Notes under the pieces: model-generated
The model's database searches: none
What the model saw: the letters and a program-made list of their open reading frames with translations, nothing else
What the model was told of the DNA's origin: nothing
Source of the DNA: a virus
IMG/VR virus record: IMGVR_UViG_2554235236_000002
Direction: 5' to 3' (one strand)
Length of the DNA: 64,000 nucleotides
Shown here: in pieces, positions 1 to 44,952 of the stretch
Numbering within the stretch: position 1 is the stretch's first letter
Layout of the letters: every line of letters begins with the position of its first letter
Translations under genes and position numbers: made by a program

Positions 1-917
1 GGGGAGAGGGAGCCATTATCTTTTGCTTTTTGCAGCTCTTTATATTTTTGTATTAACTGATCGGTCTGTTCTTTATTTGTGGTTATTGCTTCGACACTTT
101 TCTTTTGTGACTCTGCAAGCTTTTCTTGTTCTTGTTTAGCATCAGAATAAGCAGAGACAAGTTTTTCGATTACGAAGCCTAAAGCCATGAAACCTGCCAT
201 AGGCAGTACAGCACCTGCAAGAAAAGCCATTGTTGTTCGAGCGGTAGTTTTTAATGTAGCTAACGTAATATTTAAAAAGCGGGCTCTTATTGCTGCTCCA
301 GTCATGGAAGACGAAAAGGCAGTTAACGATGTAGGGAAGTTGTTAAGCAGTCTTAAGAATAAGTTCCCATTAGCTATGGCTCCGGTTCTAAGTGAAGCGT
401 TAAAGAGTAATACCGCAGTAGTTGCAATGCCAAAAACTTGAGGAAGGAGTCCGATTGTTTTTGTTATACCTGTTCCGATTTGAACAAGGTCTTTTAGAGT
501 TTCTGTAAGTGCAACTATGCCATCTGAAACTACTGCATCCCCAGAGGCTAAGCTCAATTCTGTCCACGCGTTTGATAATCGATTTATTCTTGCCTGGAGA
601 CTTTCTGAATATTTTTCCTGTTCTTTCCATGCGCTTCCGGTTGATTCCGCAGCCGTTGTTGCCGAATCCTGGGCAAGCTGGAATTGGTTCATAAGTGCAT
701 TAAATCGAGATAACTGGTAAATTCCGGAAACGCCTATTGCAGTTTGCCGTTTTTGTGCCTCAGAAAGACCGTCCCATTTGGAACTAAGCTCTTCAATTAG
801 TTCACTTGCGCTTTTAGCTTCTCCACTCGCTGTTTTAACAGAGATGCCAATTTGATCTAAAGCTTTTATTGAGCTTTCATTGTTTCCGATTCTCGCAAAG
901 ATTGTTTTTAAGGCGTT
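1..917 (-). CDS. yomI: Tail tape-measure protein, exon 3 (runs off window)
   Basis: Open frame NALKTIFARIGNNESSIKALDQIGISVKT... continues to position 1 without a stop. Confidence 0.9.
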
Positions 918-1140
918 CAATTCTGTTACTTTCACCAAAAGGCTACTGACCATATAATATGGCGGTGAGGCACTTCAACCTCACTCTCTATGTTTCCATA
1001 GAGTTCAGACTGTCGCTTCACATTTCTGCGTCTCTTCACTCAGTCGTTCAGGCTGCCATTACGCTTGCCCCTTGTCGTCCTCGACTAAACGTTAGGATTT
1101 CCAAGTCAATCAGAAGAGATTTAATGTCAGCAATCATTTT
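918..1140 (-). ncRNA. Group I intron (223 nt, no ORF) in the tape-measure gene
   Basis: P1: exon UGUCGGU pairs with IGS GCUGACA, with the U-G wobble at the splice site. P3 UCUCUUC/GAAGAGA, P7 GACUG/CAGUC, terminal G at 918. Removal gives ...NIVG-NALKTIFARIG. Confidence 0.92.
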
Positions 1141-1308
1141 ACCGACAATGTTACCGGATTCACGCGTAGTGCTACCAATGGCGGTAGTATATCCTATTAA
1201 GTCGTTTAATTCTACACCAAAGGTTGAAGCGGTCGCGCCAGCCTTCCTTATGGAGTTAGCCAGGTCTTGTGTTGTAACTGCATAGTTGTTGTCGACTTCA
1301 TTTAATTT
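1141..1308 (-). CDS. yomI: Tail tape-measure protein, exon 2 (56 codons: KLNEVDNNYAVTTQDLANSIRKAGATASTFGVELNDLIGYTTAIGSTTRESGNIVG)
   Basis: 168 nt, in frame with both flanking exons; typical TMP motif. Confidence 0.9.
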
Positions 1309-1584
1309 CGAATAATACCCTCGGTTTCCCGATACTTAGAGTAGGGGACTAGACTATATCTTCATCCCATTGGGATGCCCAGCGCTTCGAACAGTAGCTC
1401 AAAATCTGCTCTACACCATAAAGGTTAGTCGTTACACCTTCCTAAAATAGGCTTGGCACGGTATTGTCATAGGATTACTCCCTTAGAGTTCCACCGTTAG
1501 CATCCTTAGAAGAGGACACACCCCTGAGCAATAGGGTTCACTGGGTTTACGCTTATACATTACTGTATAAGGCGACTATAATTA
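1309..1584 (-). ncRNA. Group I intron (IA2-like, 276 nt, no homing endonuclease ORF) in the tape-measure gene
   Basis: Exon ends in U (GAU); intron ends in G (1309). P3 CCCAGUG/CGCUGGG, P7 GACUA/UAGUC, P10 UAAUU/AAUUA. Removal restores ...IAD-KLNEVDNN. Confidence 0.92.
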
Positions 1585-2976
1585 ATCGGCAATTGAAATT
1601 GAGTCTTCTGCAGCAACATTAAAGTTTAACATTGCACTTGTCAAAGTATTGACTGTTTCATCTACGGACAGATTTGATACGTTTTGAAGAACTTCTGCAG
1701 TTTTAGTAACGCTTCCTAGTTCAGCTTCATCAAATCCCATTCTCCCAAATGAACTTGTCATTTGAAGAATATCTGAAATCTTGTTGGAAAGCTGATCTCC
1801 CATCTCAACTGCTTCCTGCAACATATCATTGAACTTATAATTAGGTTCATCCATAACCCTGCGAATTTCAGTCATAAGTGTGTCAATTTGAATAACTTGA
1901 TCGACCATCGACTGCAACCCGCGAATTGGCCCCATGAACATAGTCATACCAGCAAACCACACCGGTATGCGGGCGGCAGCGACTCCTAACTGTTCAACAA
2001 ACCCCATTGTCTGCCTTGTAGTAGCAGCAATGTTAGAGGACATTTCCCTAAACTGCATATTAAGACTAGCCATCTGATTTCTTAGATTAGGTGTCCTTGC
2101 AGACAATTGATTAACTGAATTCAAATACTGCTGAAGTTGTAAATTACTTGCCTGGCTCAATGAGCTGCCGTATCTGTTTTGTAAGTTCTGAGTATTTACC
2201 TGGGCTTGTCTTCTATATAGTTCTAACTGCCTTTCAAGCTCTTTAGTCTTTGCAACTGCTGCTGACTTGTCATCAAGAGTCTTAAGCTTGACTCTGAGTG
2301 CTTCAATTTGTTCTGTAGACTGAGCTAAATTAATTTTTCTTCCAAGAGAGGAGAGGGTGACTTCAGACAGTTGCCCTTGCTCTTTTAGTCTTTGTAAGCT
2401 TACTCTAAGCTGTTCGATTGCCTTTCTTTGTTGATCAAGATTTGTTACAGTGGTTGAGTTTTTAATATTCCCATTTTGGTCGAGATTGTACGTAATATCC
2501 TTAAAACCATCACGATTTTTTTGAGTAGTGCCTGTCTTAATGCCTTGAGCATTTTGCCTTTCAATTATCTTTTGAGCTTGGCCAAGCTTTTGAATTTCAG
2601 AGGTTAATTTTGCTGTTTCCTGAGCTTCTTGACGAACCTTTTGATTTCGATTATCAATCGTCTTAATTTCTCGCTGAAGTATTTCACCATTCTTTTTGTG
2701 CTGCTGAATGATTTTTTCAGTTGTCCCATCAGAATTCTTAATGACCGTTTGTGTTTCTTTGACTGTTTGATTGTAATTCTTAAGATTTTTTTGATATGCT
2801 TCAACTGCAGAAGAGAATTCTTTGAGGGTTTTTAAAGCGGAAGCATCAATGTTTGTTTTGAGTTGAAGGGAGTTTAACTTAGATTGTAGTGTTTTAAGCT
2901 GTTTGTTGATTTGTTCGACTGATTGAGCGGAGGTGTCGGCAACTGGAGTAACTACAATTTTCAATTGTTGACTCAA
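1585..2976 (-). CDS. yomI: Tail tape-measure protein, exon 1
   Basis: MSQQLKIVV... coiled-coil protein with TMP motifs; the ORF stops at ...SISIAD exactly at a group I 5' splice site. Confidence 0.9.
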
Positions 2977-3340: not shown

Positions 3341-5551
3341 TTATGAGGTGACTTGAATTTCCGACGGCATCTTGTTCATTGTCAAATGGCTTAGCTTCTG
3401 TCTGACGCCATAAAATCTTTTCTTTAAGTCCTCAGGAAACAAAAAAATAAAATCATATTCTTTAATGTTTTTATAGTAATCAATTTTTTTCATTGTTTTA
3501 TTCTTGTATTTTTTTAGCAAAGCGTTAGGAGGATTTTCTACATACATTCCAAAGTACTCAATATATACTACCTTTCCGCACTCAGGAAAGATAACAAAGT
3601 CAGGCGTGTACCATCTTCCTCTGCCTTCGTTACTTAACACAAACGAATGCTCACTTTTATACTCTACTCCAATTGGTTTTATTGATTTGATTTTCATTTC
3701 ATTTTTAATGAATTCATAAATCTCTACTTCTTCAAAACTGTCGCAAACGAAACCATCGCTCGTTATAAAAACATTAAAATCATTTGGATTCCATAAATGT
3801 TCATATTCGGGAAATGCACTACAGCACCACTGATAATAATTGTCAAAGTGACTTTTCCAAATAACTTTATTAAACTTTTCATAACCAAATTTGATAAGCC
3901 CTGACCGATTAACTTTTTTAGGGATATCAAGGGGATCTTTTATATTTAGGCGATATAAAATGAGTTCTTTCATCATATCGACAAGAAGTTCTTTAGTGTA
4001 TTGATTCCATTGATGCCACTCCCACTTGAATAAAATTTTATCTTTTTTAATAGAAGGAAAGGCTTCAATTAAGACCTCATATAAACTATTATAATACTTA
4101 GTATAATTAAAGAATGAATATACATCCTTACTTGTGAAGTTGTTTCTCAACCATTTCTTCAACTTTTCTGTACTGGTTAAAAAAGGTTCAATACCATGAT
4201 CGTAACAATAAGTTTTAATTGCAAGTATTCTATTTTCTTTGTCATCCCAAAAGCCAGTTGGGCTATGGGAAAAATCAAAAAGATGGATTTCTCTATCAAA
4301 TTTAGGGTGTAATACTCCCCTTGAATTTAAATACCAATGAAGCAGTCTCGTTGTTGAATGATTAAATTTTGTACTTGCAAAGGATTTTATTTTTTGATTT
4401 ACGGTATTTTGAGTCAAATTTAAAATATCCTCAATTGATAAGCGCTTTTTCTTTATCCAATAATCTAAATATTTTAAAATATCATCTTCATCCTGTGTAT
4501 AAAAGCTCAACTCGTATCGCTTTATATTTTTGTCAGGAAAACATAGATTTAAAAACCTTAATCGATCTGAGAATTTTTTATACAGGTGCCATATCTTATA
4601 TCTTTTCATTAGTTCTTTATTAAAAACGTGATTGTCACACAATTCTTTTTTACTTAGTTTTAAAAAGTCACTTAGAACAAATCTGCAAATCTTTATAACA
4701 TTTTTTTCTGTATTGCAGAATTCAGGCATCAATCCAATCTTTCCATCATAATAAAGTTTCCACCACTCAATAGGGTCTATGTCTTCGAATTTTTCAAAAA
4801 TGATACCATTCTTTCTGTACCTGAGCATGTTTGCATTGTGACCTTCACATTTTTTACAAGTGGTTTTCAATCCGTATTTTCCTAAATGATGAGCACTAAA
4901 ATTTTGATTGTCAAAAGGCTTTACTTCTTTACATTGGCGACACTTATAAAAAGAAGGTTTATTATTTGCTTTCTGAATACTAGATATTTTTTTATTTCTA
5001 GTTTCTTTTTTTAATGGATAAATGAACTGGTAAATATCAGGAAAGCTTTTGGTGTTAAAATGTTTATAGTATTGAGTGCGACTAACGTATCCTTTTTTAT
5101 TTGTCATGTCTTTTTCAGAAGGGAAGCATTTGTTTTCTTCACAAAATCTTATCACTTCATTAACAAGTGCTTTTTGCACATCATTTAGATTGTCAAATTC
5201 ACTTGTTAATTCGTAAATAGTGCCTTTATATTTTCTTGAGTTGCATTTCTTAAATTCAAAATTATCAACGCTCCTAATTTCACTATATTTTTTCCCGGAG
5301 CATGCTCTACAACAATACTTTGTTTGTTTTTCTTTAATAACACGTCTGTAGTAATTGTTATAGACTGTTGTTTTAATTTTATTGCAATAATCACATTTGA
5401 CTCTAACACTTGCCTCACTTCCCTTAGTAAGATGTTCTGCTTTAACAGTAAATGTTTTTCCTAGCCCCGTATACATATAGCCCAATTCAATAAAATGTTT
5501 TTTATTTCTTGCATTCCAAACAACATCTACGAGCTGATTTTCTAATATCAT
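3341..5551 (-). CDS. Large multi-domain putative free-standing (homing) endonuclease with a C-terminal PD-(D/E)XK-like domain
   Basis: N-terminal zinc ribbon (VKCDYC...YCCRAC), HNH-associated-type repeat (FPSEKDM...SRTQYYKHF), second CxxC-CxxC finger, and C-terminal DSFEEVEI...YTPDFVI...YIEYFG...KKIDYY. Confidence 0.65.
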   Translation of the reverse strand: MILENQLVDVVWNARNKKHFIELGYMYTGLGKTFTVKAEHLTKGSEASVRVKCDYCNKIKTTVYNNYYRRVIKEKQTKYCCRACSGKKYSEIRSVDNFEFKKCNSRKYKGTIYELTSEFDNLNDVQKALVNEVIRFCEENKCFPSEKDMTNKKGYVSRTQYYKHFNTKSFPDIYQFIYPLKKETRNKKISSIQKANNKPSFYKCRQCKEVKPFDNQNFSAHHLGKYGLKTTCKKCEGHNANMLRYRKNGIIFEKFEDIDPIEWWKLYYDGKIGLMPEFCNTEKNVIKICRFVLSDFLKLSKKELCDNHVFNKELMKRYKIWHLYKKFSDRLRFLNLCFPDKNIKRYELSFYTQDEDDILKYLDYWIKKKRLSIEDILNLTQNTVNQKIKSFASTKFNHSTTRLLHWYLNSRGVLHPKFDREIHLFDFSHSPTGFWDDKENRILAIKTYCYDHGIEPFLTSTEKLKKWLRNNFTSKDVYSFFNYTKYYNSLYEVLIEAFPSIKKDKILFKWEWHQWNQYTKELLVDMMKELILYRLNIKDPLDIPKKVNRSGLIKFGYEKFNKVIWKSHFDNYYQWCCSAFPEYEHLWNPNDFNVFITSDGFVCDSFEEVEIYEFIKNEMKIKSIKPIGVEYKSEHSFVLSNEGRGRWYTPDFVIFPECGKVVYIEYFGMYVENPPNALLKKYKNKTMKKIDYYKNIKEYDFIFLFPEDLKKRFYGVRQKLSHLTMNKMPSEIQVTS

Positions 5552-30412: not shown

Positions 30413-30484
30413 CAGGGGCGACAGGGATCGAACCTGCCCACGCGGTTTTGGAGACCGCATCGCCACCGAGGAACATGCGCCCCT
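30413..30484 (-). tRNA. tRNA-Trp (CCA), non-canonical D arm, 3' CCA not encoded
   Basis: Acceptor AGGGGCG/CGCCCCT, anticodon arm GCGGT-CTCCAAA-ACCGC, T arm GCAGG-TTCGATC-CCTGT, discriminator G. Confidence 0.85.
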
Positions 30485-38295: not shown

Positions 38296-38478
38296 GTGTT
38301 TGATAGGGTAGGTGTTGTGTTGGCTATTGTCTTATCTCTTTCAACGCTGACAATCAATATACTAACCATTATTGAGAAGTTAGCCACAATAAGAAACAAG
38401 ACAAGCCATAGACATCAAAGAAAAAAGCGTCTACGAAAGCGAAACCGGGCAAGGCACCGCAGACGTACACGCCTATAA
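38296..38478 (+). CDS. yonT: Type I toxin YonT-like (TM helix plus Arg/Lys tail)
   Basis: VGVVLAIVLSLSTLTINILTIIEK followed by RHQRKKRLRKR. Confidence 0.85.
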   Translation: MFDRVGVVLAIVLSLSTLTINILTIIEKLATIRNKTSHRHQRKKRLRKRNRARHRRRTRL

Positions 38479-38547
38479 CACAGCAGGCTAGAGGAGTAAT
38501 CCTCTAGCTTCATCTACAGTATAACATAATCAAACACAATTTAAAAC

Positions 38548-44382: not shown

Positions 44383-44595
44383 ATGACACACAACGAAAAA
44401 TTACTAAACGCATTAATGCAGTTCAAAAATTCAGCATATGAAATTCGGGATCTTTGGGAGCAAGCCGACAGCATAACAGATAGTGATCTTTGTGATGATT
44501 ATCCATTTGATAATGATTTTTGTGAAGTTGTTGAAAAGATAGGTGACTGGGTAATGACACAAAATAGCTTATTAAATCAAAATAAAACAAATTAA
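44383..44595 (+). CDS. Hypothetical protein (70 aa)
   Basis: ORF with RBS. Confidence 0.7.
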   Translation: MTHNEKLLNALMQFKNSAYEIRDLWEQADSITDSDLCDDYPFDNDFCEVVEKIGDWVMTQNSLLNQNKTN

Positions 44596-44631: not shown

Positions 44632-44696
44632 AGTCGTGGCGGCGACGTTAAATAGGCATTAAGCCGCCAGCGTTCCCCACATTGGGGAGGTTGCAA
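44632..44696 (+). ncRNA. Pistol self-cleaving ribozyme
   Basis: P1 GUCG/CGAC with loop UGGCGG pseudoknotting to CCGCCA; UUAAAUAG linker; P2 GCA/UGC; UUAAG; GCG; P3 CCCC/GGGG; AGG-U cleavage motif. Confidence 0.9.
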
Positions 44697-44727: not shown

Positions 44728-44952
44728 ATGCGAATTAAAAAGAAAAGGGATGATAATATGAATGAAATGGATTTAATTCATGCGTTTAAATCAATGCTAA
44801 TGGTAGCTAGAGAATACGAATTAAAAATTGATGAGAAGTACGAAGAATTAGAAAATATCCTTTTAGAAGAGTATGACTTAGAAGTGGTTCATACAGTGGA
44901 TCATGACATGATGGATAGTATGGAAAACGTGTATCAACTATTAAATAAATAA
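44728..44952 (+). CDS. Hypothetical protein (likely start 44758)
   Basis: ORF just downstream of the ribozyme. Confidence 0.65.
   Translation: MRIKKKRDDNMNEMDLIHAFKSMLMVAREYELKIDEKYEELENILLEEYDLEVVHTVDHDMMDSMENVYQLLNK

What the first reader, a model, noticed from the sequence alone, without database searches (positions are those of the whole stretch)
918..1584. Two different ORF-less group I introns 168 nt apart in the tape-measure gene
Seen in sequence: the tape-measure ORF stops at ...SIAD. Removing 1309-1584 and 918-1140 restores one continuous frame (IAD|KLNEV...NIVG|NALKTIF). Both inserts have U before the 5' splice site, a terminal G, and P3/P7 cores. They are unrelated to each other: a 276-nt IA2-like intron and a 223-nt compact intron. 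Neither encodes an endonuclease. Inference: tail assembly needs two splicing events, which could act as a timing or physiological checkpoint on virion production. Automated annotation would wrongly call this gene split or dead.
Basis: partly seen in the sequence, partly recalled or inferred. Interest (0 to 1): 0.8.

Follow-up and report, generated by a model that had tools for sequence, protein, structure and literature searches.

The report
Two introns split phage tape-measure gene
The tail-length "tape measure" gene of an SPbeta-like Bacillus prophage is cut into three pieces by two small group I (self-splicing type) introns that carry no endonuclease gene; this is real, but it is a further example of an arrangement already known in Bacillus phages.

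Summary
On the minus strand the tape-measure gene reads exon 1 (2976..1585), a 276-nt insert (1584..1309), a 168-nt exon 2 (1308..1141), a 223-nt insert (1140..918) and exon 3 (917..1, running off the window). Removing both inserts gives an open 825-codon frame. It is colinear with intron-less SPbeta yomI, and the TP901 tape-measure profile runs across both joints without a gap (3-120, 121-175, 176-346).

Both inserts have U before the 5' splice site, a terminal G, a guide sequence that pairs with the 5' exon, and a P3/P7 pseudoknot core. Compensatory base changes in relatives support these helices. The two inserts are unrelated in sequence and architecture, and neither has an ORF.

Splicing was not shown. 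RNA-run contigs gave no junction for this allele.

The "checkpoint" inference has no support. Relatives carry none (SPbeta) or one to three introns, at six sites within about 130 codons. Intron 2 is 94-98% identical between phages whose flanking exon DNA is only 66-78% identical. That pattern fits selfish, laterally moving elements.

Group I introns in Bacillus prophage tape-measure genes were described in 2008 (PMC2504315), and this scan has noted them before in other genomes. Verdict: a new member of a known kind, of modest interest.

The parts
1585..2976 (-). Exon 1 of the tape-measure (yomI-like) gene, 464 codons, ending ...SIAD. The start codon is taken as the first TTG of the ORF and is not verified.
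   Evidence: ORF list and translation. TIGR01760 tape_meas_TP901 profile positions 3-120 match residues 349-464, E 7.6e-25. About 74% DNA identity to SPbeta yomI.
1309..1584 (-). Intron 1, 276 nt, an IA-type group I intron with no ORF. It begins with an in-frame TAA. Guide sequence AGUCG is at 1577..1573. P2 is at 1571..1552. P3 is 1545..1541 paired with 1382..1378. Two extra hairpins lie at about 1536..1503. P4 is 1497..1493 paired with 1462..1458. P7 is 1430..1426 paired with 1356..1352. P7.1/P7.2 lie at 1425..1394, P8 at 1377..1363 and P9 at 1346..1318. The terminal G is at 1309.
   Evidence: RF00028 38.5 bits over the full model. Exact gap against SPbeta. Helices keep pairing with compensatory changes across 20 distinct related introns. 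Coordinates. Folding z-score -2.4.
1141..1308 (-). Exon 2, 168 nt or 56 codons (KLNEV...NIVG).
   Evidence: TIGR01760 profile positions 121-175, E 2.4e-13. 94.6% amino-acid identity to a contiguous stretch of SPbeta and phi3T yomI.
918..1140 (-). Intron 2, 223 nt, a compact group I intron with no ORF and no P2. Guide sequence GCUGACA is at 1131..1125 and pairs with the exon end UGUCGGU. P3 is 1119..1113 paired with 1037..1031. P4 is 1105..1102 paired with 1074..1071. P5 is 1097..1094 paired with 1081..1078. P6 is 1070..1067 paired with 1053..1050. P7 is 1045..1041 paired with 1012..1008. P8 lies at 1030..1019, P9 at 1003..986, P9.1 at 984..965 and P9.2 at 962..950. The terminal G is at 918. 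Thirty in-frame codons run from exon 2 into the intron, up to a UGA at intron nt 91-93.
   Evidence: RF00028 28 bits; only the 3' half is placed correctly. Exact gap against SPbeta. RNAalifold on 9 sequences supports P4-P9.1 with compensatory pairs. P3 is paired 7/7 and P7 5/5 in four distinct variants. Coordinates. Read-through. Folding z-score -2.8.
1..917 (-). Exon 3 (NALKTIF...), open for 305 codons to the edge of the window. The gene continues beyond it.
   Evidence: Translation. TIGR01760 profile positions 176-346, E 6.1e-25.

Best explanation
The tape-measure gene of this SPbeta-like prophage carries two independent group I introns in the conserved TP901-type core of the protein. The late transcript is made as one pre-mRNA. 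Each intron folds into the group I core, made of P1 (the guide sequence paired with the end of the upstream exon), the P3/P7 pseudoknot, P4-P6, P8 and P9. It is then removed by the usual two transesterifications: an external guanosine attacks after the U at 1585 or 1141, and the freed exon end attacks after the terminal G at 1309 or 918. This joins GAT-AAA and GGT-AAC and allows translation of one full-length tape-measure protein. Unspliced RNA would give a 464-residue product ending at the TAA that opens intron 1. Neither intron encodes a homing endonuclease. They are selfish passengers that persist because they splice. They reached this allele by lateral transfer: recombination with intron-bearing phages, help from an endonuclease supplied in trans, or reverse splicing. 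Shown here: the inserts, their exact borders, the restored protein domain, the conserved and co-varying ribozyme helices, and the lateral distribution. Inferred: that both RNAs actually splice in the cell, and how they move.
For: Intron-less SPbeta yomI is colinear, with gaps of exactly 276 and 223 nt. The TIGR01760 profile is continuous across both joints: 3-120, 121-175, 176-346; Pfam PF10145 behaves likewise. RF00028 matches both inserts and nothing else of this family in the window. For intron 1, P2, P3, P4, P5a, P6, P6a, P7, P7.1, P8 and P9 stay paired with compensatory changes over 20 distinct related introns. Its 3' core matches introns of many Firmicute phages. For intron 2, P4-P9.1 have compensatory pairs. 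Its P3 is paired 7/7 in four variants that differ at 5 of the 7 pairs, and its P7 is paired 5/5 with one compensatory pair. Relatives of intron 2 also split known genes, a P22-type coat gene and a ribonucleotide reductase gene. The exons stay open and in frame in all 15 IMG/VR relatives, 2 genome loci and 2 further Bacillus genomes that carry such inserts. Intron 2 is 94-98% identical where flanking exon DNA is 66-78% identical. Published precedent: PMC2504315, PMC3706429 and PMC11878797.
Against: There is no direct evidence of splicing. In four RNA runs the contigs keep intron and exon contiguous, which fits pre-mRNA or DNA carry-over. The one contig that joins 917 to 1142 is a 91%-identical allele with GGA instead of GGT, so it is most likely an intron-less gene of another phage. 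Both Rfam scores are below the curated threshold of 50 bits. P10 is weak for both introns: 2 bp for intron 2, and an off-register 4 bp for intron 1, read from the sequence. P4 of intron 2 has only 4 bp. A ribosome could run 30 codons into intron 2 before it meets a stop, which might interfere with folding. Intron 1 has two hairpins between P3 and P4, a placement I could not match to a described subgroup.
Confidence: 0.85

Rival explanations
1. The inserts are decayed intron relics that no longer splice. The tape-measure gene would then be dead and the prophage defective.
For: No spliced junction was recovered from the RNA runs. Rfam scores are sub-threshold. There is no endonuclease gene, as in degenerating introns.
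Against: All three exons are open and give a seamless domain match. The core helices are intact and co-vary. The same introns sit in a provirus rated 99% complete. Many relatives have intact exons around them. A dead gene would accumulate stops and frameshifts.
Confidence: 0.07
2. The introns are kept because splicing acts as a checkpoint. Tail assembly would be gated by guanosine or GTP supply, or by the coupling of translation and folding.
For: Both introns lie in an essential late gene, and both must be removed for a functional protein. Intron 2 is open to ribosome entry for 30 codons, which could couple splicing to translation.
Against: Close relatives manage with 0, 1, 2 or 3 introns at different sites. 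Intron and host gene have different histories. No conserved feature beyond the ribozyme was seen. Nothing measured here concerns timing.
Confidence: 0.05
3. The inserts are not introns but another kind of insertion, such as a miniature transposon, an IStron or an assembly artefact.
For: None specific. This is considered only because the Rfam scores are below threshold.
Against: The inserts lie at exact codon-preserving borders with U at -1 and a terminal G. The group I core co-varies. The same inserts occur in independent assemblies and in 15 sequencing studies. No transposase was seen; terminal repeats were not scanned for.
Confidence: 0.02

Closest known systems
TMP-IVS1, IVS2, IVS3a and IVS3b: group I introns in tape-measure genes of Bacillus cereus-group prophages (Tourasse & Kolsto 2008, PMC2504315)
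   Same: These are group I introns, some without a complete endonuclease gene, inside the tape-measure gene of Bacillus prophages, with up to two per gene. Related introns occupy different sites with adapted P1, and different introns occupy one site. The distribution is patchy and does not follow host phylogeny.
   Different: The phage lineage differs (SPbeta-like rather than lambdaBa01-like), and so does the host group (relatives here are in B. glycinifermentans and B. paralicheniformis). Here six sites crowd into about 130 codons of the TP901 core, and up to three introns sit within about 400 coding bases. Intron 2 is not IA1 or IA2. I could not check whether any site coincides with IVS1-3, because the figure is not held.
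Group I introns of SPbeta bnrdE and bnrdF (Lazarevic et al. 1998 and 2001, cited in PMC8270828)
   Same: They lie in the same phage family and are group I introns in conserved phage genes.
   Different: They sit in ribonucleotide reductase genes, not the tail gene. SPbeta itself has no intron in yomI. The review of SPbeta-like phages that I read mentions no tape-measure intron.
Multi-intron genes of Herelleviridae: Twort orf142 with three ORF-less IA2 introns (from my own knowledge), and Bastillevirinae polymerase and terminase genes with 2-3 introns (PMC11878797)
   Same: Several group I introns lie close together in one phage gene, and some lack an endonuclease. The 3' core of intron 1 is 86-92% identical to introns of Staphylococcus, Listeria and Enterococcus phages.
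   Different: Those phages are virulent myoviruses and the host genes differ. Splicing was shown experimentally there, not here.
ORF-less 265-bp group I intron in the minor tail gene of mycobacteriophage BAKA (PMC3706429)
   Same: It is a small endonuclease-less group I intron in a tail gene. It has U at the end of exon 1 and G at the end of the intron, and it is absent from close relatives.
   Different: There is one intron per gene, the host is an actinobacterium, and splicing was confirmed by RT-PCR.

Membership tests
Group I intron (Rfam RF00028) | The 5' splice site follows a U that forms a U-G wobble with an internal guide sequence (P1). | tested here: met
   Intron 1: exon CGAU pairs with intron GUCG, U(-1) with G9, and the helix is extended by U1-A8 and A2-U7. 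Intron 2: exon UGUCGGU pairs with GCUGACA, U(-1) with G10, giving 7 bp. The same guide and exon pairing is kept where family A sits at a second site (ctcgat|TAATTATAGTCG).
Group I intron (Rfam RF00028) | The last intron nucleotide is G (omega-G). | tested here: met
   G at 1309 and G at 918. All 35 inserts extracted from relatives also fit T at -1 and G at the 3' end. Where the alignment allowed several junctions, the one with T and G was chosen.
Group I intron (Rfam RF00028) | A conserved core is present: the P3/P7 pseudoknot with P4-P6 and P8. | tested here: met
   Intron 1: P3, P4, P6, P7 and P8 stay paired with compensatory changes. Intron 2: P3 7/7 and P7 5/5 in four variants, and P4, P5, P6 and P8 have compensatory pairs. 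The alignments are small and the sequences are related, so this is support, not proof.
Group I intron (Rfam RF00028) | The score reaches Rfam's curated gathering threshold of 50 bits. | tested here: not met
   The scores are 38.5 and 28 bits. The third intron of the nearest provirus reaches 49.5 bits. PMC11878797 notes that the covariance models under-represent some intron groups. For intron 2 the model mis-places the 5' half into exon 2.
Group I intron (Rfam RF00028) | Removal joins the exons precisely and restores the host gene. | tested here: met
   The test was by homology only. SPbeta yomI is colinear and TIGR01760 is continuous across both joints.
Group I intron (Rfam RF00028) | Splicing is guanosine-dependent, in vitro or in vivo. 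| not testable with these tools
   The RNA-run contigs gave no junction for this allele.
Subgroup IA (IA2-like phage introns) | Extra helices P7.1 and P7.2 lie between P7 and the 3' strand of P3. | tested here: met
   This holds for intron 1 only. Intron nt 160-191 form two hairpins; P7.1 stays paired in 15-20 of 20 sequences. Intron 2 has only 3 nt between P7 and P3', so it is not IA. The subgroup definition is recalled from my own knowledge.
Mobile (homing) group I intron | The intron encodes a homing endonuclease. | tested here: not met
   Neither intron has an ORF. Endonuclease-bearing relatives do exist. A record named Microcystis phage MaeS has a 1.3-kb insert near the first site with a Vsr/DUF559-type ORF (phrog_559, E 3e-13).

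The most novel reading that the evidence does not exclude
The TP901-type core of SPbeta-like tape-measure genes is an active arena of intron traffic. At least six insertion sites lie within about 130 codons, and at least five families of endonuclease-less group I introns occupy them. These introns still move between diverged alleles (intron 2: 94-98% identical, against 66-78% for flanking exon DNA) and between sites (family A at two sites, 91% identical). If this movement runs through reverse splicing or through nucleases supplied in trans, or if the introns are retained because they make the allele immune to intron-borne nucleases of competing phages, the locus would be a natural system for studying how ORF-less introns spread.
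Probability: 0.25. Interest if true: 0.55.

Novelty: new member of a known kind. Interest (0 to 1): 0.3.

Why it matters
For annotation, gene callers will report this essential tail gene as two or three fragments or as a pseudogene. This has already happened for Geobacillus virus E3 and for a podovirus coat gene. The prophage could then be scored as defective when it probably is not. For biology, the relatives show a dense intron hot spot in one conserved protein core. Endonuclease-less introns there are much younger than their host genes. This gives a compact comparative data set on how such introns spread, but it adds no new principle.

Tried and rejected
1. RNA evidence. Four RNA runs were laid on 400-2200. 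Contigs keep introns attached to exons. The only 917|1142 joint belongs to a 91%-identical allele with GGA at the junction and differences that the intron-bearing contig of the same run lacks. I read it as an intron-less gene of another phage, not a spliced product.

2. The Rfam gathering scan found no intron. Only the E-value scans did.

3. Megablast against the phage records found nothing. Blastn was needed.

4. The window's own assembly is not held. A locus cannot serve as a search centre.

5. The ORF has no Pfam family. Residues 7-91 match phrog_12131, 'homing endonuclease', at E 1.2e-9. It shows no similarity to the intron-borne nuclease of the MaeS record. No full-length counterpart was found in relatives that carry the same introns, including the nearest provirus; one (L009) has a distant 23-39% identical match over most of its length, and four have only short N-terminal matches. 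The idea is therefore neither supported nor excluded.

6. An alternative P3 for intron 1 (GGAUGC with GCAUCC) was rejected. It competes with P8, which abuts the conserved GAAGAUAUAGUC element, and it is not kept in family E. CCCAG with CUGGG co-varies.

7. The P2 that RNAalifold proposed for intron 2 (AAUC with GAUU) was rejected, because it overlaps the co-varying P3.

8. Co-conversion tracts. The first 50 nt of exon next to intron 2 are more alike than the next 160 nt. That stretch is also conserved in intron-less SPbeta, so this says nothing.

Full report
WHAT IS THERE. The gene lies on the minus strand. An ORF of 464 codons (2976..1585) ends ...SISIAD and is followed at once by TAA. Cutting out 1584..1309 (276 nt) and 1140..918 (223 nt) joins it to a 56-codon piece (1308..1141) and to a frame that stays open to the window's edge (917..1). 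Together these give 825 codons without a stop, reading IAD|KLNEV and NIVG|NALKTIF. T precedes both 5' junctions and G ends both inserts. Every coordinate in the finding is correct.

IS IT MORE THAN CHANCE. There are three independent checks.

- Intron-less SPbeta yomI (about 74% DNA identity) aligns colinearly with gaps of exactly 276 and 223 nt, at GAT|AAA and GG(T/G)|AAC. The second junction can slide by one base on alignment alone; only the stated position gives U at -1 and a terminal G.
- NCBIfam TIGR01760 (tape_meas_TP901) matches exon 1 at profile positions 3-120, exon 2 at 121-175 and exon 3 at 176-346. No residue is lost or gained at either joint. Pfam PF10145 behaves the same way.
- Rfam's group I model matches both inserts and nothing else of that family in the window. 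The scores are 38.5 bits (E 4.8e-8) and 28 bits (E 6.8e-5). Both are below the curated 50 bits, so the default scan missed them.

RIBOZYME ANATOMY OF INTRON 1. The guide sequence AGUCG (1577..1573) pairs with the exon end CGAU, with a U-G wobble at the splice site. I aligned 20 distinct related introns from tape-measure genes of relatives. P2, P3 (intron nt 40-44 with 203-207), P4, P5a, P6, P6a, P7 (155-159 with 229-233), P7.1, P8 and P9 stay paired, with many compensatory changes. For example, P3 occurs as C-G, U-A and G-C, and P7 as U-A and C-G. Two hairpins between P7 and the 3' strand of P3 (P7.1 and P7.2) mark it as IA-type. Its 3' core is 86-92% identical to introns of Staphylococcus, Listeria and Enterococcus phages. 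Two further hairpins sit between the 5' strand of P3 and J3/4; I could not place these in a described subgroup. The intron opens with an in-frame TAA.

RIBOZYME ANATOMY OF INTRON 2. Rfam places only its 3' half correctly, so I worked from relatives. These were seven near-identical copies at the same tape-measure site and three distant copies. One distant copy splits a P22-type coat gene of a podovirus, one splits a ribonucleotide reductase gene of a roseophage, and one lies in a Desulfovibrio phage. RNAalifold recovers P4, P5, P6, P7, P8, P9 and P9.1 with compensatory pairs. P3, which that program cannot draw because it forms a pseudoknot with P7, is UCUCUUC (1119..1113) paired with GAAGAGA (1037..1031). 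It is paired 7/7 in all four distinct variants although five of the seven pairs differ between them. P7 is paired 5/5 with one compensatory pair. The guide GCUGACA (1131..1125) pairs with the exon end UGUCGGU. There is no room for P2 and there is no P7.1/P7.2, so this is not an IA intron. The exon frame runs 30 codons into the intron before a UGA. The two introns share no detectable similarity. Neither has an ORF. Both fold better than shuffled controls, with z-scores of -2.4 and -2.8.

RELATIVES. The nearest record, an IMG/VR provirus rated 99% complete, has both introns. It also has a third, 337-nt group I intron inside exon 2 (RF00028 49.5 bits). I examined fifteen IMG/VR relatives, two genome loci (Bacillus glycinifermentans and B. 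paralicheniformis) and two further Bacillus genomes. Inserts with T at -1 and a terminal G occur at these places, numbered on the window's spliced protein:

- after codon 464;
- inside codon 475;
- inside codon 504;
- after codon 520;
- inside codon 592.

Geobacillus virus E3 has a homolog of intron 1 after codon 470, which makes six sites in about 130 codons. Each gene carries one to three introns. SPbeta, phi3T and their B. subtilis kin have none at these sites. Five or six intron families are involved. Family A, to which intron 1 belongs, also occupies the codon-592 site in two phages at 91% identity. There the same guide sequence faces a similar exon end, CUCGAU. Intron 2 is 94-98% identical between phages whose flanking exon DNA is 66-78% identical. 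It has therefore moved laterally and recently, without an endonuclease of its own. A record named Microcystis phage MaeS has a tape-measure homolog with a 1.3-kb insert near the first site. That insert holds a Vsr/DUF559-type endonuclease gene (phrog_559), and its 3' end resembles intron 2. So nuclease-bearing introns do target this region.

WHAT IS NOT SHOWN. Splicing itself is not shown. Six RNA-type runs hold part of the stretch, and I laid four of them. The data are assembled contigs, which keep introns joined to exons. The single contig that joins 917 to 1142 is a 91%-identical allele with GGA at the joint, most likely an intron-less gene of another phage. The checkpoint idea has no support. 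The free variation in intron number and position among close relatives, and the mismatch between intron and host-gene histories, point to selfish elements. How ORF-less introns move here is open. The neighbouring 736-aa ORF has an N-terminal domain matching a 'homing endonuclease' phrog. No close or full-length counterpart was found in relatives with the same introns; the best is one distant 23-39% match.

COMPARISON AND NOVELTY. Group I introns in tape-measure genes of Bacillus prophages were described in 2008. That work found three sites, up to two introns per gene, IA1/IA2 types, some lacking a complete endonuclease gene, related introns at different sites and different introns at one site (PMC2504315). 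Two or three introns per gene are common in Bacillus myophages (PMC11878797). An ORF-less tail-gene intron was shown to splice in a mycobacteriophage (PMC3706429). SPbeta's known introns are in bnrdE and bnrdF (PMC8270828). I found no paper on tape-measure introns in SPbeta-like phages, but the library is incomplete. This scan has already noted tape-measure introns in other genomes: 65 notes in at least 48 genomes hold the search words. They include a five-intron gene and an SPbeta-like prophage. The finding is therefore a correct reading of a new member of a known kind. The added value is the hot spot and the evidence for recent lateral spread of endonuclease-less introns.

Noticed in passing
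window 44632-44695 (+): A Pistol ribozyme (RF02679) scores 61.2 bits, well above its gathering score of 34.5, E 1.1e-8. It lies in the gap between two same-strand ORFs, 44383..44595 and 44728..44952.
   Followed up: partly
window 38416-38511 (-): A sub-threshold match to the Bacillus SR6 antitoxin RNA (RF02892) scores 45.1 bits against a gathering score of 55, E 1.5e-4. This would fit the yonT/SR6-type toxin-antitoxin of SPbeta-like phages (the SPbeta link is from my own knowledge).
   Followed up: no
window 3341-5551 (-): A 736-aa ORF lies just upstream of the tape-measure gene. It has no Pfam family. Residues 7-91 match phrog_12131, 'homing endonuclease', at E 1.2e-9. No close or full-length counterpart was found at this position in 17 relatives; the best is one distant 23-39% match. 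This looks like a variable slot.
   Followed up: partly
L019 4124-4460 (= G001, nearest provirus): A third group I intron of 337 nt lies inside the counterpart of exon 2, splitting codon 475 after its second base. This leaves a 32-nt exon between two introns. Its 3' end is 93% identical to that of intron 1.
   Followed up: partly
L033 206-1500 (record MT362618.1, named Microcystis phage MaeS): A tape-measure homolog, 61% identical to the Bacillus exon 2, is split by a 1.3-kb insert and annotated as separate hypothetical proteins. The insert has a Vsr/DUF559-type endonuclease ORF and a group I 3' core. A Bacillus-like tail gene in a phage recorded as infecting a cyanobacterium is odd.
   Followed up: partly
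window 1503-1536 (-), intron 1 nt 49-82: Two hairpins are inserted between the 5' strand of P3 and J3/4-P4. They are present in families A, B, E and the Geobacillus E3 intron and absent from family C. I could not match this placement to a described group I subgroup.
   Followed up: partly
window 30414-30484 (-): A weak match to the tRNA-Sec model scores 35.7 bits against a gathering score of 47.
   Followed up: no
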